Below, piece by piece: positions 45,033-48,362 of a DNA stretch of 64,000 bases. The DNA is from Candidatus Woesebacteria bacterium. GTDB lineage: Bacteria; Patescibacteriota; Microgenomatia; UBA8517. The DNA lies in assembly GCA_963716475.1 (NCBI GenBank), contig OY970314.1, positions 692,790-756,789 on the forward strand, written 5' to 3'. The notes under the pieces were generated by a model. The model was not told the DNA's origin. It made no database searches and saw nothing but the letters and a program-made list of their open reading frames with translations. A program made the translations under genes and the position numbers. Position 1 is the first letter of the stretch; every line of letters starts with the position of its first letter.

Positions 45033-45080
45033 TTTGGTTTTGGAACCCCCTCGACTCTCTCCGTTCGCTTAAGGGCCAGT

Positions 45081-45112
45081 AAACAACAAAAAAGGCGCCT
45101 TCAAAAGGCGCC
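45081..45112 (-). terminator. Intrinsic terminator / attenuator hairpin within the rplC 5' leader
   Basis: Minus strand ggcgccuuuugaaggcgcc followed by UUUUUUGUUGUUU; lies between the rplC promoter and start codon. Confidence 0.5.
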
Positions 45113-45182
45113 TCAGGGAGGCTACCTAAGAAGATCAACCGTGGCTAGTAACTGACATAACCACTTGCATGTTACGAGGGGA

Positions 45183-45211
45183 ATTATAACAGAAGCTCCC
45201 AAGTTACGCAA
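45183..45211 (-). promoter_or_regulatory. Sigma70-like promoter TTGCGT-17-TATAAT for the rplC operon
   Basis: Hexamers read on the minus strand; about 145 nt upstream of the rplC ATG. Confidence 0.5.
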
Positions 45212-45248
45212 GCGTGCATGCATCCTATGCTTATGTTAAAATCCCGAT

Positions 45249-46409
45249 GTGAGTAAAACGTGGGCAAAAATAGGTGCGGCCGTTTTTTTTCTTACCAGCT
45301 TTATTCTAATTTTAGGGAATCTCTATAGAATTGTTTCTACTACTACCCCTGACTTTGGTGTGATTTGGATCTCGGTAAAAGACATGCTAGTTGGTAAAAA
45401 CCCTTATATAAATCCAGCTTTAGTTGTCCCAAATGCATATCCGCCGGTTAGCGAGTTATTTTATATTCCGCTGGCTTTCCTTCCCTATCAAGTCTCGCAG
45501 GCAATATTTACATTTATCTCATTCTTTTCAATAGTCGGGGCTATTTACTTATCAATAAAATTAGCATTTGGGAAGGTTGTTTGGCCATATTTTCTGGTTT
45601 TTATGGGTTTGGCTTTTCTATCCTTTCCGACAAAGTTTTCTTTAGGAATGGGGCAGATCAATTCAATCGTACTTTTGCTGTTACTTTTGGCCTATTACCT
45701 TGAATTGAAAAATAAATCTGTTTGGGGCGGAATAATTTTAGGTTCTTCAATCATTTTAAAGCCTATTTTTGTTTTCTTTTTACTCTTTTTTGCACTGAAA
45801 AAATCTTGGAAAATCATATCAGTTAGCCTTGCCACGGTTTTTATAGGAATCGTCACAACTTTACTTTTTTTGAATCTCGGTACCTGGGTTTCATGGTTCA
45901 ATACAGGCATTCTTCCTCTTGTTGCAAGTTTGGCGGGCAGGGAGGTGTACTACAATCAAGGGGTATTGGGTTTTATTTCAAGAATTTTTACAAGCCTTGA
46001 TGTACGAAAATACTTAAGCGAATTTGTTTCAATTCTTTTGGTAGCTCTCGCGTCATTTTACGTGCTAAGAAAAAGGAGCGGCGTGCTGACCCTGTCTTTA
46101 TTTATTATTACTCTGCTTATTATCGATACCACCTCCTGGCAGCACCATTTCGTCTGGTTAATATTCCCGTTTATCGTTCTCTTTAGCTATCTAGTCAAAT
46201 TAAAAAAGGTCGTATTTTTGGGATTAATTTGTTTGGCCTATCTTCTCGTCAGTTGGAATTTTAAAAATCCTTTATACTTTCCCCCAATTATTCTTTCCAA
46301 CCAGTTCTATGGAACCATTATTTTATGGGCAATTAATATATATCTACTCTCCGGACCAAGACAAACGGAAATAGCCAATAGGAGAAATATATTCACGAAA
46401 ACAAAATGA
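45249..46409 (+). CDS. Polytopic membrane protein, GT-C-like (DUF2029/GT87-like) putative glycosyltransferase
   Basis: 386 aa, 10 or more TM helices; GTG start; 4-nt overlap with the downstream epimerase (translational coupling); family call tentative. Confidence 0.5.
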   Translation: MSKTWAKIGAAVFFLTSFILILGNLYRIVSTTTPDFGVIWISVKDMLVGKNPYINPALVVPNAYPPVSELFYIPLAFLPYQVSQAIFTFISFFSIVGAIYLSIKLAFGKVVWPYFLVFMGLAFLSFPTKFSLGMGQINSIVLLLLLLAYYLELKNKSVWGGIILGSSIILKPIFVFFLLFFALKKSWKIISVSLATVFIGIVTTLLFLNLGTWVSWFNTGILPLVASLAGREVYYNQGVLGFISRIFTSLDVRKYLSEFVSILLVALASFYVLRKRSGVLTLSLFIITLLIIDTTSWQHHFVWLIFPFIVLFSYLVKLKKVVFLGLICLAYLLVSWNFKNPLYFPPIILSNQFYGTIILWAINIYLLSGPRQTEIANRRNIFTKTK

Positions 46410-47299
46410 TACTAGTAACGGGCGCCTCGGGTTTTATCGGCAGAAAACTTTCCCCGCTTATCAGAAAAGGACATCCGGAAGAAAAGATTTTTATATTAAA
46501 CGAAAAAAAACACAATTTAGTAACAGGTAAGGGTTTGGATCTGATTCCGGCAGATCCAAGACTCATCTTTCACCTTGCTGCGGCAACCGATACATCAAAG
46601 GGCGACCAAAGATGCAATGACATCGGGATGATAAATTTAATAAAACACCTGCCAAAAATCGGACCCAAAACCCATTTTATTTTTACAAGTTCCCAGGCAA
46701 TTTTTTCGGACAGACGCGATACGGATAAACCGATTTATCAAAATACAAAACCGGCAACAAACGACAATTATGGAAAAACAAAACTTGAGGCGGAAAAAAT
46801 TCTCTTAAAGGCGGCTAAGGAGAAAAAATTTAAATTAACAATCATCAGACTGCCCACCGTTTGGGGAGAAAATCCCAGAAAAAACAGTTTTTTGAACTTT
46901 TTACGAAAATTGGTTGACACAAATTCGCCATTTTCGAGGCTAAATTGGCCCGGAAAAGTCGCTTTAATTAATGTGGAAGACGCAGCAAAATTTATTCTAA
47001 ATTCTTCTATGAGAGCTCCTCAAAAACCTAAAATAATATCTATTGCTGTTCAGAATTTAACCCTGGCGGAAATTTTTGAAAAAATTACAGTCGGAAAAGG
47101 AAAAGTTTATAGCCAAATAAAAGTCCCTAATTCCGTCTGGAATTTTGCCAAGTTTTTAAGGCCTTACATGAAGTTTTTCGAACCGATTTTGCCCGCCAAT
47201 ATTTATAACTACTTTTGGCGTGCTTCAATAGTTGTGGACAGTCCCCTTTGGTGTAGGGTAAATATTAAAGGCAAAAAGTTTAAATCTAAATCTGCATAA
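46406..47299 (+). CDS. SDR-family NAD(P)-dependent epimerase/dehydratase
   Basis: GASGFIGRKL Rossmann motif, catalytic YGKTK (YxxxK). Confidence 0.75.
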   Translation: MILVTGASGFIGRKLSPLIRKGHPEEKIFILNEKKHNLVTGKGLDLIPADPRLIFHLAAATDTSKGDQRCNDIGMINLIKHLPKIGPKTHFIFTSSQAIFSDRRDTDKPIYQNTKPATNDNYGKTKLEAEKILLKAAKEKKFKLTIIRLPTVWGENPRKNSFLNFLRKLVDTNSPFSRLNWPGKVALINVEDAAKFILNSSMRAPQKPKIISIAVQNLTLAEIFEKITVGKGKVYSQIKVPNSVWNFAKFLRPYMKFFEPILPANIYNYFWRASIVVDSPLWCRVNIKGKKFKSKSA

Positions 47300-47330
47300 T
47301 ACCGTATCCTATTTAAATATCCTATAAGTC

Positions 47331-47359
47331 TTGACAATGGCCAATTTCAGTGTTATATT
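47331..47359 (+). promoter_or_regulatory. Sigma70-like promoter TTGACA-17-TATATT
   Basis: Consensus -35, exact 17 nt spacer, 5/6 -10; predicted TSS at about 47366. Confidence 0.55.
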
Positions 47360-47365
47360 GATAGC

Positions 47366-47428
47366 AGTTTACACAACTAAGTCGGTTTGCCGACAAAGAA
47401 AAAGGGCCGAAAGGCCCTTTTTTGATGA
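47366..47428 (+). ncRNA. Putative roughly 60 nt sRNA: antisense copy of a tRNA fragment followed by an intrinsic terminator
   Basis: 47366..47388 is identical to 47469..47491 (antisense of tRNA nt 38-60) with 1 mismatch; then gggccgaaaggccc plus T6 terminator. Confidence 0.35.
47402..47428. terminator. Bidirectional intrinsic terminator (also terminates the minus-strand tRNA)
   Basis: aaaaagggccgaaaggcccttttttg; A-run and T-run on either side. Confidence 0.65.
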
Positions 47429-47440
47429 AAAGATTCGTCG

Positions 47441-47528
47441 AGGTGGGGACGAGATTCGAACTCGCGTTAGTTTACACAACTAAATCGGTTTTAAAGACCG
47501 ACGCCATAAGCCACTCGGCCACCCCACC
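47441..47528 (-). tRNA. Type-II (long variable arm) tRNA with anticodon UUA; predicted ochre-suppressor-like tRNA (Ser/Tyr-like body)
   Basis: Hand-folded: acceptor GGUGGGG/CCCCACC, D arm GCC/GGC, anticodon stem UCGGU/ACCGA with loop CUUUAAA (34-36 = UUA), variable stem UAGUU/AACUA, T loop UUCGAAU; discriminator U; no CCA. Confidence 0.6.
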
Positions 47529-47530
47529 AT

Positions 47531-48262
47531 CTAACTTTCCTTACTCTCAATCTTGTTTATCTCGTCTTCTCTTATTAAACCAACTTTTTTTGCAAACTCA
47601 ATTATTTTTTGGCGTACCTCAGTAAGTTCGCCCGAGGCGACAGCGTCGTCAATTATTTCATTCTTGGGTATTAATAGCCGAATGCCCGTATGGGAAATGT
47701 TAAGATCGATCATGGGCTGGCCTATTGGGGGATGAGTATAAAGGCCGACCTGGCCAATTTTCCCATGTTCCTGATTTTTTGTTCCAGAAGAAATCGATTT
47801 AACATGAGTTTTTCTCGTCTTAACTTCTTCTGAAGTCTTAATTCCCGCTTTACCACATAACCAGATGAAAATAGGCACAGCAGTGTTTGCCAAACGTGGG
47901 CTAATCTTATACACAGCCATGAGTTCGTCATGAAGATTATCCCGATTAAGCAGCTCCGCGCTTGGAACAGTATCGAAAAGTTCTTTGTATGCCTCCCTAA
48001 CGATCTCCTGGAGCTTTTGTTCCTTACCCTCTGCCTTCATGGATAAAACTCTAGCCCTCTCAGTTGGTACGCCTTCATCGGAAATCATGCCTAAAAATTT
48101 AAGTGCTTGTATTGCCAAAAAAGCATCGGGCTCAGAAAAACCACGGAGTTTCAGGTCATTCATGGTCAACTTGGAAAAGCTGTGAGTACCCAACAGAGCA
48201 AAGAGCTGATCAAGCTTAGCAACACTCATATACGGAGGAGTCTTTTTAACTACTTTTTCCAT
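47531..48262 (-). CDS. Hypothetical protein (243 aa)
   Basis: ORF with TTGACA-18-TATACT promoter ending 7 nt before the ATG (leaderless candidate); no recognised domain. Confidence 0.45.
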   Translation of the reverse strand: MEKVVKKTPPYMSVAKLDQLFALLGTHSFSKLTMNDLKLRGFSEPDAFLAIQALKFLGMISDEGVPTERARVLSMKAEGKEQKLQEIVREAYKELFDTVPSAELLNRDNLHDELMAVYKISPRLANTAVPIFIWLCGKAGIKTSEEVKTRKTHVKSISSGTKNQEHGKIGQVGLYTHPPIGQPMIDLNISHTGIRLLIPKNEIIDDAVASGELTEVRQKIIEFAKKVGLIREDEINKIESKES

Positions 48263-48362
48263 TGGGGAAAGTATAGCATACAACCACAAGTCTTGTCAAA
48301 TCGTGCGTCTTTATCTTGAATTTGGACTAACTTTATTCGACAACCGAAGAAATTGGCAGAAC

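What the first reader, a model, noticed from the sequence alone, without database searches (positions are those of the whole stretch)
45033..48362. A 3.3 kb insertion splits rpsJ from rplC within the conserved S10 operon
rpsJ (48363..48671) is normally immediately upstream of rplC (44235..45032). Here the two are separated by a block containing a GT-C-like polytopic membrane protein that is translationally coupled to an SDR epimerase, both on the opposite strand. The block also holds a promoter/terminator sRNA unit, the UUA tRNA, and a 243-aa hypothetical protein with its own promoter. The composition suggests a cell-envelope glycan-modification cassette plus a tRNA-associated element inserted into the most conserved gene cluster in bacteria.
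Basis: partly seen in the sequence, partly recalled or inferred. Interest (0 to 1): 0.55.

Follow-up and report, generated by a model that had tools for sequence, protein, structure and literature searches.

The report
Cargo hotspot holding tRNA-like/antisense cassette
The 3.3 kb between rpsJ and rplC is real, but it fills an operon boundary that many related CPR bacteria load with different genes; one of its two cargo modules is an undescribed, conserved cassette of a DUF5343 protein, a tRNA-shaped RNA and a small antisense RNA aimed at that RNA's variable arm.

Summary
rpsJ (48363-48671) and rplC (44235-45032) are 3330 bp apart. The gap holds GT87 plus an SDR (4-nt overlap, + strand), a DUF5343 protein, a tRNA-like gene with anticodon UUA, and a convergent promoter/terminator unit.

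Across 77 Microgenomatia loci the rpsJ|rplC gap has a median of 233 bp, and 24 loci carry unrelated cargo. In 11 of 12 relatives checked, rplC has a TTGCG-like/TATAAT promoter, a leader and a terminator hairpin. The site is therefore an operon boundary and a recurrent cargo hotspot. I found no integrase, target-site duplication or clear compositional anomaly.

The block is two separable modules.
- **Module B (GT87+SDR)** is shared with the sister species.
- **Module A (about 1 kb)** recurs behind rpsJ, rpsG or other genes in seven distinct loci.

Module A runs: own promoter, DUF5343, tRNA-like RNA with a long variable arm, bidirectional terminator, a copy of the variable arm, then a strong antisense promoter. 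The variable arm and its copy co-vary in all five complete loci. Anticodon loops are not conserved (UUA, CCA, CAU, UUC; three lack U33), so a dedicated ochre suppressor is unlikely.

DUF5343 matches the defence candidate PDC-M34A. Distant homologues pair with DUF3800. The function is inferred: an antisense-controlled, toxin-antitoxin-like or defence-like cassette.

The parts
48363..48671 (-). rpsJ (S10), last gene of the tuf-rpsJ unit and upstream border of the gap.
   Evidence: Pfam PF00338, 1.3e-28. Four contigs encoding the identical S10 protein (L001-L004) lose DNA similarity to the window within about 16 bp of the rpsJ stop codon.
48270..48299 (-). Promoter of the DUF5343 gene: TTGACA, 18-nt spacer, TATACT, with TG before the -10. 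The -10 ends 7 nt before the ATG, so the mRNA is probably leaderless.
   Evidence: 11/12 match; sequence. Equivalent promoters are seen in L086, L092 and L099.
47531..48262 (-). DUF5343 protein, 243 aa (module A).
   Evidence: PF17278, 45.5 bits against a cutoff of 27. PADLOC PDC-M34A, 8.5e-14. 849 representative clusters in the family. AF2 model has pLDDT of about 90 for residues 10-140, a wHTH-like element plus a helical bundle, with no significant PDB or BFVD match.
47441..47528 (-). tRNA-like RNA with a long variable arm and anticodon loop CUUUAAA (UUA). It starts 2 nt after the DUF5343 stop codon.
   Evidence: Rfam tRNA 59.1 bits; ARAGORN tRNA-Stop(tta). Cloverleaf MFE. The alifold consensus of 5 family members is a cloverleaf, with 12 of 21 pairs compensatory.
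47399..47424 (.). Bidirectional intrinsic terminator: A-tract, GGGCC-TTTC-GGCCC, T-tract. It is shared by the DUF5343/tRNA-like transcript and the antisense sRNA.
   Evidence: Sequence. The same element sits at the same place in L085, L009, L093 and L099.
47365..47424 (+). Predicted antisense sRNA of about 60 nt. It comprises the complement of the variable arm and the 3' anticodon stem (47366-47388), a mini hairpin, and the terminator.
   Evidence: Repeat D1: 47366-47388 against 47469-47491, 22 of 23 identical. Cognate sRNA:tRNA-like duplexes are the best in every row and column of a 5x5 matrix and lie beyond 300 shuffles. The ends are inferred, not measured.
47331..47359 (+). Promoter of the antisense sRNA: TTGACA, 17-nt spacer, TATATT, with TG before the -10.
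   Evidence: 11/12 match. A promoter scoring 9-12 of 12 with a 17-nt spacer sits at the same relative position in all five complete loci.
46406..47299 (+). Extended-SDR NAD-dependent epimerase/dehydratase-family protein, 297 aa (module B).
   Evidence: PF01370, 9.6e-18. TGASGFIG and YGKTK motifs are visible in the translation. NCBIfam gives only sub-threshold hits to GalE, RmlD and WbcJ. Orthologues are 75% identical in L013 and 67% in L006.
45249..46409 (+). GT87-family polytopic membrane glycosyltransferase, 386 aa (module B). Its stop overlaps the SDR start (ATGA).
   Evidence: PF09594, 1.5e-21. NF009915 mannosyltransferase scores 50 bits, far below its 413 cutoff. Overlap shown. Orthologue is 53% identical in L013.
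45033..45211 (-). rplC promoter and leader: -35 TTGCGT at 45211-45206, -10 TATAAT at 45188-45183, then a leader ending in a terminator-like hairpin at 45092-45114 plus a U-tract.
   Evidence: The terminator hairpin is conserved in 11 of 11 aligned relatives. A promoter of this type (a TTGCG-like -35 in most loci, a TATAAT-like -10) is present in 11 of 12 loci, including L010 with a gap of only 70 bp.
44235..45032 (-). rplC (L3), first gene of the rplC-rplD-... unit and downstream border of the gap.
   Evidence: PF00297, 8e-16. 45-84% identity to 80 Microgenomatia loci.

Best explanation
**Locus level (shown).** In this Microgenomatia (Patescibacteria) lineage, rpsJ is transcribed with tuf. rplC starts a separate unit with its own promoter, leader and attenuator-like terminator hairpin. 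The rpsJ|rplC junction is thus an operon boundary, and it has become a recurrent cargo hotspot. The window's 3.3 kb is a mosaic of two independent modules.

**Module B (GT87+SDR).** It lies on the opposite strand, is translationally coupled, and is inherited together with the sister species. It most likely modifies a sugar donor (SDR) and transfers it from a polyprenyl-phosphate carrier to an envelope glycan (GT87, a GT-C enzyme). This function is inferred from the family assignments only.

**Module A (48299-47331, about 1 kb).** It is a self-contained cassette bounded by two convergent strong promoters. One promoter drives DUF5343 and a tRNA-shaped RNA that begins 2-10 nt after the stop codon. 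The other drives an sRNA of about 45-60 nt. The 5' part of that sRNA is complementary to the long variable arm of the tRNA-like RNA and, in three loci, also to the 3' strand of its anticodon stem. Both transcripts end at one bidirectional terminator.

**Proposed mechanism for module A (inferred).** The tRNA-like element is a structured 3' module of the DUF5343 transcript. It is a likely RNase P/Z processing site and a likely ligand of DUF5343. The antisense sRNA docks on its variable-arm hairpin, loop to loop. This either unfolds or masks the element or triggers cleavage, and so sets the level of DUF5343 and of the free tRNA-like RNA. That is the logic of a toxin-antitoxin or abortive-infection cassette. 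DUF5343 belongs to the PADLOC defence candidate PDC-M34A, and distant homologues are coupled to the ncRNA-associated RNase H-like DUF3800.

**The UUA anticodon.** It is most likely incidental rather than marking a dedicated ochre suppressor.

**My confidence by layer.** Locus-level account about 0.85; module A architecture about 0.85; module A mechanism about 0.3.
For: **Hotspot**
- In 77 loci the median gap is 233 bp (range 70-6972). 24 loci have gaps of 900 bp or more.
- The cargo is unrelated from locus to locus: FtsJ methyltransferase, His_Phos_1, EamA, inositol monophosphatase, NUDIX, CAP, acyltransferase and unknowns.
- Four contigs with an identical S10 protein diverge from the window within about 16 bp of the rpsJ stop, and each has different sequence downstream.

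**Operon boundary**
- A promoter of the TTGCG-like/TATAAT type is seen in 11 of 12 loci and a leader ending in a GGCGCC hairpin plus U-tract in 11 of 12 (L010 has only the promoter; no promoter was identified in L011).

**Two modules**
- L013 (84% L3 identity, sister in the NJ tree) has the SDR (75%) and GT87 (53%) but no DUF5343 or tRNA.
- L009/L089, L085, L086 and L099 have rpsJ followed by DUF5343 and the tRNA-like gene, with rplC next in L009/L089 and L085 (L086 and L099 contigs end before it), and no GT87/SDR.
- L005, L007 and L008 have neither.

**Module A architecture**
- Seven distinct loci have a tRNA-like gene directly after DUF5343.
- In all five complete loci, a 14-28 nt direct copy of the variable arm lies 81-104 nt downstream, past a terminator. 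Its sequence differs between loci and matches within each locus.
- Each of the five has an antisense promoter scoring 9-12 of 12 with a 17-nt spacer, ending a few nt before the copy.
- Cognate sRNA:tRNA-like duplexes are the best in every row and column of a 5x5 matrix and lie beyond all shuffles.
- In L009 the mini hairpin in the copy carries a compensatory C-G to U-A change.
- The cloverleaf is conserved, with 12 of 21 pairs compensatory.

**Defence and ncRNA link**
- PADLOC PDC-M34A, 8.5e-14.
- DUF5343 is translationally coupled to DUF3800 in L101 (28.7 bits against a cutoff of 21) and, more weakly, in L100 (17.3 bits, below cutoff).
- DUF3800 is an RNase H-like domain associated with 11 unexplained terminator-ended ncRNA motifs and with type VII retrons (PMC5737381, PMC10910872, PMC7736814).

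**The anticodon is not selected**
- The loops are CUUUAAA, CUUUAGA, CUCCAGA, CCCCAAA, CCCAUUA and CAUUCAA.
- U33 is absent in three, and the discriminator base varies among U, G and A.
Against: - No transcript data exist. Both promoters, the sRNA ends and the processing step are predictions.
- Only five complete and two truncated examples are available, all from Patescibacteria metagenomes.
- The DUF5343 fold gave no significant structural match, so RNA binding by DUF5343 is a guess.
- PDC-M34 is itself only a candidate system, and no M34B-like partner is present in the window.
- No toxicity or defence phenotype is known. The cassette lies beside housekeeping genes rather than in a defence island.
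- The window's tRNA-like RNA has fully canonical tRNA features (U33, A37, GG in the D loop, UUCGAAU T loop), so real decoding cannot be excluded.
- The NJ tree rests on 333 columns. Whether the patchy distribution reflects gains or losses is unresolved.
Confidence: 0.6

Rival explanations
1. The tRNA-like RNA is a working mis-decoding tRNA. In the window and L092 it would suppress UAA. Elsewhere it would be a CCA or CAU reader on a Ser-type class II body. It acts as an RNA toxin or regulated read-through factor. The antisense sRNA, by masking the variable arm (the SerRS identity element), is its antitoxin.
For: - The window RNA has canonical U33, A37, D-loop GG and T-loop UUCGAAU, and scores 59 bits on Rfam tRNA.
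- From my own knowledge, its D arm and anticodon arm resemble E. coli tRNA-Ser(UGA), and SerRS ignores the anticodon.
- A second locus (L092) also has UUA.
- TAA is 45 of 67 stop codons in the window, so suppression would be strongly deleterious. That would explain a need for tight antisense control.
- The sRNA targets exactly the variable arm.
Against: - The anticodon is not conserved among orthologous cassettes: UUA, CCA, CAU, UUC.
- U33 is replaced in L085, L099 and L093, and position 37 is U in L099.
- The L093 T loop is UGCAAUU, it has no D-loop GG, and it gets no Rfam tRNA hit.
- The discriminator base varies among U, G and A.
- No in-frame TAA is needed in any of the 67 ORFs.
Confidence: 0.13
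2. The whole 3.3 kb is one recently acquired genomic island that integrated at a tRNA gene. The partial tRNA copy would be an att remnant and the promoters fortuitous.
For: - A tRNA gene with a nearby partial direct repeat is the classical signature of integrase-mediated insertion (D1).
- GT87 and the SDR have the lowest or near-lowest GC in the window, 0.363 and 0.371.
Against: - There is no integrase or recombinase in the block.
- The repeat covers the anticodon stem and variable arm, not the tRNA 3' end. It lies only 81-104 nt away with nothing but a terminator in between, and this is so in five divergent loci.
- The two modules occur separately in relatives.
- The GC values are under 2 sd from the mean and are matched by other window genes.
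- There are no target-site duplications or terminal inverted repeats.
- Antisense promoters are conserved in position.
Confidence: 0.04
3. The arrangement is an old, vertically inherited feature of the lineage. Module A and/or B would have been present in the clade ancestor and lost repeatedly, so nothing was 'inserted' in the window genome.
For: - Module B is at the same place in the sister species L013, and partly in L006.
- Module A sits directly behind rpsJ in five loci whose L3 identity to the window, where rplC is on the contig, is 64-66%. DUF5343 divergence (50-62% identity) is roughly commensurate with L3 divergence (64-66%).
Against: - This would need about five or more independent losses of A on the S10+L3 tree, because L013, L005, L006, L007, L008, L010, L011 and L012 all lack it.
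- Homologous cassettes also sit behind rpsG (L093, L090) and a His_Phos_1 gene (L092). DUF5343 homologues with a different downstream RNA sit behind dnaJ (L094-096) and rny (L097).
- Contigs with an identical S10 protein carry entirely different cargo.
Confidence: 0.2
4. Assembly or binning chimera: the block was joined to the ribosomal cluster by misassembly.
For: The window comes from a metagenome-type assembly. Short conserved genes such as rpsJ can seed chimeric joins.
Against: - Independent assemblies from ENA, Logan, JGI and NCBI give rpsJ-DUF5343-tRNA-like-rplC (L085, L009, L088/L089), rpsJ-DUF5343-tRNA-like on a contig that ends there (L086), and rpsJ-SDR-GT87-rplC (L013).
- The DUF5343 protein is on record on a single 982,852-bp contig.
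- Both junctions fall in intergenic DNA with intact promoters.
Confidence: 0.02

Closest known systems
Gene insertions at the str|S10 operon boundary (bfd-bfr between tufA and rpsJ in Gammaproteobacteria; ilv-leu in Sporolactobacillaceae; Brandis 2021, PMC8046335).
   Same: [quoted passage not shown] The events are lineage-specific.
   Different: Here the boundary is one gene further on (rpsJ|rplC rather than tuf|rpsJ), because rpsJ travels with tuf. The junction is hypervariable even among contigs with identical S10 protein. From my own knowledge, an rpsJ-with-tuf organisation is also reported for cyanobacteria and archaea; I did not check this here.
DUF3800-associated structured RNAs (DUF3800-I to -XI, drum, skipping-rope; Weinberg et al. 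2017, PMC5737381).
   Same: Structurally unrelated ncRNAs, often ending in intrinsic terminators, are tied to one protein family of unknown function. DUF5343 is translationally coupled to DUF3800 in distant homologues.
   Different: The window cassette has no DUF3800 gene. Its RNA is tRNA-shaped and is accompanied by a dedicated antisense sRNA. No Rfam DUF3800, drum or skipping-rope model matched.
PADLOC phage-defence candidate PDC-M34 (component A).
   Same: The window protein matches PDC-M34A at 8.5e-14 over 150 residues, and so do distant family members.
   Different: PDC-M34 is a multi-gene candidate. No second PADLOC-recognised component is present here. The locus is next to ribosomal genes, not in a defence island. 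No paper on PDC-M34 or DUF5343 was found.
Antisense-RNA-controlled modules: type I toxin-antitoxin systems (hok/sok) and plasmid copy-number antisense RNAs with kissing-loop recognition.
   Same: A short, strongly transcribed convergent sRNA shares a terminator with its target and is complementary to a hairpin of the target transcript.
   Different: The sRNA gene does not overlap its target. It overlaps a duplicated copy of the target segment. The target is a tRNA-shaped 3' element, not a translation initiation region. The protein is a 243-aa soluble protein, not a small membrane peptide.
Suppressor and non-canonical class II tRNAs: phage suppressor tRNAs, allo-tRNAs and nematode V-arm tRNAs (named from my own knowledge; not checked in papers here).
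   Same: A long-variable-arm tRNA body carries anticodons that do not belong to Ser, Leu or Tyr, including a stop-codon reader.
   Different: The anticodon loop drifts among orthologous cassettes and often lacks U33. There is no recoded gene set. The RNA is always welded to DUF5343 and to an antisense sRNA.
E. coli S10 leader (L4-mediated attenuation) and other ribosomal-protein leaders.
   Same: A promoter-proximal structured leader ends in an intrinsic-terminator hairpin directly upstream of the first gene of the rplC-rplD... unit. It is conserved in 11 loci.
   Different: It lies upstream of rplC, not rpsJ. It has no sequence or Rfam similarity to known leaders. The regulator is unknown. 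The E. coli leader is reported as confined to Gammaproteobacteria (title and abstract of PMC3616713).

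Membership tests
tRNA (Rfam RF00005) | Cloverleaf with acceptor, D, anticodon and T arms, scoring above the family gathering threshold. | tested here: met
   59.1 bits against a threshold of 29 for the window RNA. L009, L085 and L099 score 40-53 bits; L093 gives no hit. The alifold consensus of five members is a cloverleaf.
tRNA (functional elongator) | Conserved anticodon-loop architecture (U33, purine 37) and a stable anticodon among orthologues. | tested here: not met
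   The window has U33 and A37. Orthologous cassettes have C33 (L085, L099), A33 (L093) and U37 (L099). Anticodons are UUA, CCA, CAU and UUC.
tRNA (functional elongator) | Aminoacylation and use on the ribosome. | not testable with these tools
   Needs acid-urea northern blots, in vitro charging and reporter read-through assays.
Ochre suppressor tRNA / stop-codon recoding system | Anticodon UUA in a 7-nt loop. | tested here: met
   Loop CUUUAAA; ARAGORN calls it tRNA-Stop(tta).
Ochre suppressor tRNA / stop-codon recoding system | Genes that require in-frame TAA read-through, or depletion of TAA as a stop codon. | tested here: not met
   All 67 ORFs examined are intact under table 11. TAA terminates 45 of 67.
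DUF5343 (Pfam PF17278) | HMM match above the gathering score. | tested here: met
   45.5 bits against a cutoff of 27, covering residues 19-153 of the 252-aa ORF translation and profile positions 1-138 of 140.
PADLOC PDC-M34 candidate defence system | Component A present. | tested here: met
   PDLC04589, E = 8.5e-14.
PADLOC PDC-M34 candidate defence system | Second component (multi-gene system) encoded adjacently. | tested here: not met
   GT87, the SDR and the 181-aa neighbour give no PADLOC hit. The cassette has no other ORF.
tRNA-targeted integrative element | Integrase/recombinase gene, and direct repeats covering the tRNA 3' end at both ends of the element. | tested here: not met
   No recombinase domain in any ORF of the block. 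The repeat is the anticodon stem plus variable arm, and it lies only 103 nt away.
Type I toxin-antitoxin | Small hydrophobic toxin peptide whose mRNA is bound by an overlapping antisense RNA. | tested here: not met
   The only protein is a 243-aa soluble, helix-rich protein. The antisense RNA overlaps a duplicate, not the gene. The antisense logic resembles type I, but membership fails.
Type III toxin-antitoxin (ToxIN-like) | Tandem array of antitoxin RNA repeats upstream of an endoribonuclease toxin. | tested here: not met
   There is a single tRNA-like unit downstream of the gene and no tandem array.
GT87 glycosyltransferase (GT-C) | PF09594 match above the gathering score in a polytopic membrane protein. 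| tested here: met
   77.7 bits against a cutoff of 25. The sequence has many hydrophobic segments. The PimE equivalog model fails, 50 bits against a 413 cutoff, so the specific acceptor and donor are unknown.
Extended SDR epimerase/dehydratase | N-terminal TGxxGxxG Rossmann motif and a YxxxK catalytic motif, with a PF01370 match. | tested here: met
   TGASGFIG and YGKTK in the translation. PF01370 scores 64.9 bits against a cutoff of 20.9. No equivalog-level assignment.
E. coli-type S10 leader (L4 attenuator) | Homology to the known leader RNA, and L4 binding. | tested here: inconclusive
   No Rfam match beyond the terminator. A terminator-ended leader is conserved upstream of rplC. L4 binding is not testable here.

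The most novel reading that the evidence does not exclude
The cassette is an essentially all-RNA toxin-antitoxin or abortive-infection device. A class II (Ser-type) tRNA carries an 'illegitimate' anticodon. In this genome that anticodon is UUA, which would read the stop codon ending two thirds of the genes. This tRNA is the toxin. The convergent sRNA neutralises it by pairing with the variable arm, the synthetase identity element. DUF5343 is the sensor or chaperone that tips the balance, for example on phage infection.
Probability: 0.12. Interest if true: 0.9.

Novelty: new variant of a known kind. Interest (0 to 1): 0.6.

Why it matters
**Gene order.** Even the most syntenic gene cluster in bacteria has a soft spot in Microgenomatia. 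rpsJ|rplC is an operon boundary, with its own promoter and attenuator-like leader, and it turns over cargo between very close relatives. This matters when ribosomal-protein synteny is used for binning, phylogeny or contamination checks of CPR genomes.

**RNA biology.** The cassette links three orphan observations:
- Pfam DUF5343;
- the PADLOC candidate PDC-M34;
- the unexplained DUF3800-associated ncRNAs.

It ties them to a concrete, testable architecture: a tRNA-shaped RNA and an antisense sRNA whose target sequence co-evolves with it. The unit is compact (about 1 kb) and easy to synthesise, so the function of these families could be tested directly.

**Annotation.** The result also cautions against reading 'tRNA-Stop' calls in metagenomes as evidence of recoding.

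Tried and rejected
- **Recoding / dedicated suppressor.** Rejected as the main reading. ORFs are intact, TAA is the dominant stop codon, and the anticodon loop is not conserved among orthologous cassettes.
- **tRNA-integrating island.** No integrase, and the repeat geometry is wrong.
- **Foreign composition.** GC and GC3 of GT87/SDR are low but within the window's range.
- **Phage or plasmid origin of DUF5343.** No tblastn hit in 50,697 phage records or 72,556 plasmids. No relative in IMG/VR. No PHROG match below E = 0.09. The tRNA-like pattern is also absent from viral contigs.
- **Known RNA families.** Rfam gives only tRNA, plus a sub-threshold terminator-driven suhB hit at the rplC leader.
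- **Literature.** No paper mentions DUF5343 or PDC-M34. The searches 'suppressor tRNA' + Patescibacteria and tRNA-like / long variable arm / antisense returned nothing relevant by title and abstract (none were opened).
- **The 325-aa membrane protein of L013/L006 as a GT87 homologue.** No significant similarity.
- **Variable-arm repeat in other DUF5343 contexts (L091, L095, L097).** Absent. These carry other downstream RNAs or none recognisable.

Full report
**1. What is there**

The window carries the rpoBC-str-S10-spc cluster of a Patescibacteria (Microgenomatia) genome on the minus strand. The closest L3 matches are MAGs labelled Patescibacteria, Woesebacteria, Microgenomatus, Gottesmanbacteria and Levybacteria.

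rpsJ ends at 48363 and rplC starts at 45032, so the gap is 45033-48362, 3330 bp. Read along the minus strand, it contains the following.

- An 11/12 promoter, TTGACA-18-TATACT, at 48299-48270.
- A 243-aa ORF (48262-47531) that is a DUF5343 protein: PF17278, 45.5 bits against a cutoff of 27.
- Two nucleotides later, an 88-nt tRNA-like gene (47528-47441). Rfam tRNA scores 59 bits, and ARAGORN calls it 'tRNA-Stop', anticodon tta. It has a long variable arm and anticodon loop CUUUAAA.
- A bidirectional terminator (47424-47399).
- A 23-nt copy of the tRNA-like RNA's 3' anticodon-stem strand plus variable arm (47388-47366; 22 of 23 identical).
- An 11/12 promoter on the plus strand (47331-47359) that points into that copy.
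- On the plus strand, GT87 (45249-46409; PF09594, 1.5e-21) and an extended SDR (46406-47299; PF01370, 9.6e-18), overlapping by ATGA.
- Upstream of rplC on the minus strand, a promoter (TTGCGT 45211-45206, TATAAT 45188-45183) and a leader ending in a terminator-like hairpin (45114-45092).

**2. Is it an insertion into an operon?**

I fetched 80 species-representative loci around rplC homologues, located rpsJ, tuf, fusA and rpsG in them, and measured the rpsJ-rplC gap.

- The median is 233 bp, the minimum 70 and the maximum 6972.
- 24 of 77 gaps are 900 bp or longer.
- The cargo in those gaps is unrelated from locus to locus: FtsJ-type methyltransferase, histidine phosphatase, EamA transporter, inositol monophosphatase, NUDIX, CAP-domain protein, acyltransferase and several unknowns.
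- Four short contigs that encode exactly the window's S10 protein are 85-88% identical to the window in DNA up to within about 16 bp of the rpsJ stop codon. They then diverge, each into different sequence.

Upstream of rplC, 11 of 12 clade members have a promoter of the same type (a TTGCG-like -35 in most, a TATAAT-like -10). This includes L010, whose gap is only 70 bp; none was identified in L011. All but L010 have a leader ending in a GGCGCC...GGCGCC hairpin plus U-tract.

So in this lineage rpsJ belongs with tuf, and rplC heads its own attenuator-equipped unit. The junction is an operon boundary that tolerates and repeatedly acquires cargo. Insertions at the neighbouring str|S10 boundary are documented in other phyla: bfd-bfr and ilv-leu (PMC8046335).

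The neighbouring junctions rpsG|fusA and fusA|tuf also vary in the same loci. In the window, rpsG|fusA holds a 181-aa low-GC ORF.

**3. Two modules, not one**

- The sister species L013 (L3 84%, S10 98%) has rpsJ, then the SDR (75%) and GT87 (53%) on the opposite strand, with an extra 325-aa membrane ORF between them. It has no DUF5343 and no tRNA.
- L006 has the SDR and the 325-aa-type ORF.
- L005, L007 and L008 (70-74% L3 identity) have empty gaps of 187-337 bp.
- Conversely, L009/L088/L089, L085, L086 and L099 have rpsJ-DUF5343-tRNA-like(-rplC) and no GT87/SDR.
- On an S10+L3 NJ tree, the window and L013 are sisters inside a clade whose other members lack module A. The A-bearing L089 and L085 lie outside that clade.

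Module A is thus patchy, implying several gains or several losses. Module B looks inherited with the sister species. GC of GT87/SDR (0.363/0.371) is low, but it is within 2 sd of the gene mean and matched by other window genes. No integrase, target-site duplication or terminal inverted repeat is present.

**4. Module A is a conserved three-part cassette**

DUF5343 homologues at 44-62% identity are followed within 2-10 nt by a tRNA-shaped RNA in seven distinct loci.

| Locus | Upstream gene | Status |
|---|---|---|
| window | rpsJ | complete |
| L085 | rpsJ | complete |
| L009 group | rpsJ | complete |
| L099 | rpsJ | complete |
| L093 | rpsG | complete |
| L086 | rpsJ | cut by contig end |
| L092 | a His_Phos_1 gene | cut by contig end |

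All five complete loci show the same order: tRNA-like RNA, intrinsic terminator, a direct copy of the variable arm, then a promoter on the opposite strand. In three loci the copy also includes the anticodon stem, closed by a 3-4-nt loop.

- The copy is 14-28 nt long and lies 81-104 nt downstream of the original.
- Its sequence differs between loci but matches within each locus:
  - AAACCGAYTTAGTTGTGTAAACT (window);
  - AAAACCGACTTAGTTATTGCTAACT (L085);
  - AACCRAYTTAGTTTTGCAACTA (L009);
  - TGGATGTTCCCTAT (L093);
  - GTTTGGTATGMCAACAAA (L099).
- The antisense promoters score 9-12 of 12, all with 17-nt spacers, and end a few nucleotides before the copy.
- The predicted sRNAs (45-62 nt) form the most stable duplex with their cognate tRNA-like RNA in every row and column of a 5x5 matrix, and exceed 300 shuffles.
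- In L009 the mini hairpin carries a compensatory C-G to U-A change relative to the tRNA-like RNA's anticodon stem. This points to selection on the sRNA's own structure.
- RNAalifold on the five tRNA-like RNAs returns the acceptor, D, anticodon and T helices of a cloverleaf (the variable arm was not in the consensus), with compensatory changes at 12 of 21 pairs.

Its target can be named: the variable arm of the adjacent tRNA-like RNA.

**5. Is the UUA tRNA a suppressor?**

Geometrically, yes. The window RNA has U33, UUA, A37, a D-loop GG and a UUCGAAU T loop, and L092 also has UUA.

The comparative evidence points the other way.

| Locus | Anticodon loop | Note |
|---|---|---|
| window | CUUUAAA | UUA, canonical |
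| L092 | CUUUAGA | UUA |
| L009, L086 | CUCCAGA | CCA |
| L085 | CCCCAAA | CCA, C33 |
| L099 | CCCAUUA | CAU, C33 and U37 |
| L093 | CAUUCAA | UUC, A33; degenerate T and D loops; no Rfam hit |

The discriminator base also varies. TAA ends 45 of 67 window ORFs and none needs read-through. The loop is therefore not under decoding selection across the family.

I take the tRNA shape to serve something else: processing by RNase P/Z, binding by DUF5343, or both. The variable arm would act as the antisense docking site. Decoding by the window's copy cannot be excluded and is kept as the novel case.

**6. What DUF5343 tells us**

- The family has about 849 clusters at 50% identity. No paper mentions it.
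- It matches PADLOC's candidate defence component PDC-M34A (8.5e-14). The window contains no partner recognised by PADLOC.
- The AF2 model is confident for residues 10-140, showing a wHTH-like element plus a helical bundle. It has no significant structural neighbour.
- More distant homologues (28-34% identity) are translationally coupled to a DUF3800 gene (L100-L102).
- DUF3800 is an RNase H-like domain known for its association with eleven unrelated, terminator-ended ncRNA motifs of unknown function, with type VII retrons and with some Cas12a2 loci (PMC5737381, PMC7736814, PMC10910872).
- Intermediate homologues (34-41% identity; L087, L094-096, between dnaJ and nusA) are followed by a different, highly conserved RNA of about 125 nt closed by a 12-bp stem. 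It has no Rfam match.
- The context type tracks protein similarity.

DUF5343 proteins thus look like partners of structured RNAs in defence-like modules. The Microgenomatia subfamily uses a tRNA-shaped RNA plus an antisense sRNA.

**7. Mechanism**

*Shown*
- The architecture.
- Co-variation of the variable arm and its copy.
- The positions of the promoters and terminators.
- Linkage to DUF5343.
- The separability of the two modules.
- The hotspot.

*Inferred*
- Both promoters fire.
- The tRNA-like RNA is cut from the DUF5343 transcript.
- The sRNA pairs with its variable arm and so controls the DUF5343 and tRNA-like RNA output.
- The cassette behaves like a toxin-antitoxin or abortive-infection unit.

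For module B, the inference is a sugar-modifying SDR feeding a polyprenyl-phosphate-sugar-dependent GT-C transferase for an envelope glycan.

**8. Verdict**

As 'an insertion in the S10 operon' the finding is ordinary. It is cargo at a lineage-specific operon boundary that is a hotspot.

The interest lies in module A. It is a compact, conserved cassette of a protein, a tRNA-like RNA and an antisense RNA. It is not described in the literature I could search, and it connects DUF5343/PDC-M34A and the DUF3800 ncRNA puzzle to a testable design.

Noticed in passing
window 45033-45211 (-); also L005-L014, L085, L089 upstream of rplC: Candidate ribosomal-protein leader. A TTGCGT-17-TATAAT promoter is followed by a GUGG..CCAC-type hairpin that co-varies with GAGG..CCUC and GGUGAU..AUCACC, and then by an invariant GGCGCC-loop-GGCGCC terminator hairpin plus U-tract just before rplC. 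No Rfam family matches. It may be an L4/L3-type attenuator.
   Followed up: partly
window 52182-52727 (-): A 181-aa low-GC (0.366) ORF with an N-terminal membrane anchor sits between rpsG and fusA. It has only a sub-threshold PsbP_2 hit. The rpsG|fusA and fusA|tuf junctions also vary by kilobases among the related loci, so the rpsJ|rplC hotspot is not the only one.
   Followed up: partly
L095 2098-2220 (same in L094, L096; L087 1348-1470): A structured RNA of about 125 nt follows a DUF5343 homologue between dnaJ and nusA. It has a 12-bp closing stem (GUCCUGGCAAGG/CCUUGUUGGGGC) and an outer stem with compensatory changes. Its core is identical between loci whose proteins differ. It has no Rfam match and no variable-arm-type repeat.
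   Followed up: partly
L091 4894-4978: An 85-nt tRNA-Thr(UGU)-like gene with an extended variable region lies about 200 nt downstream of a 32%-identical DUF5343 homologue, with a XerC-like integrase 1.7 kb further on. No antisense unit was found.
   Followed up: partly
L100 852-2065; L101 465-1834; L102: In distant relatives, DUF5343 overlaps by 4 nt (ATGA) with a DUF3800 (RNase H-like) gene. This links DUF5343 to the DUF3800-associated ncRNA puzzle of Weinberg et al. 2017.
   Followed up: partly
L001 1222-1416; L002 402-1073; L003, L004 downstream of rpsJ: Four contigs encoding the window's exact S10 protein each carry different sequence after rpsJ. L001 has the 325-aa-type membrane protein seen in L013/L006. 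L002 has an unknown ORF of more than 224 aa with no Pfam or PADLOC hit.
   Followed up: partly
window 48262-48275 (-): The -10 box of the DUF5343 promoter ends 7 nt before the ATG. L086 has 6 nt before a GTG and L092 has 9 nt. This suggests a leaderless mRNA.
   Followed up: no
L095 2260-2340; L087 1510-1590: nusA is preceded by a TTGACG-17-TATAAT promoter and a short leader. A GGUGGGG..CCCGCC hairpin plus U-tract ends only about 7 nt before the ATG. This looks like another terminator-type leader in these genomes.
   Followed up: no
window, 67 ORFs: Stop codon usage is TAA 45, TGA 13, TAG 9. The DUF5343 gene itself ends in TAG.
   Followed up: yes
L013 7692-8669 (+); L006 8827-9816 (+): A 325-329-aa polytopic membrane protein with no Pfam match accompanies the SDR in the relatives but is absent from the window. 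It shows no significant similarity to the window's GT87.
   Followed up: partly
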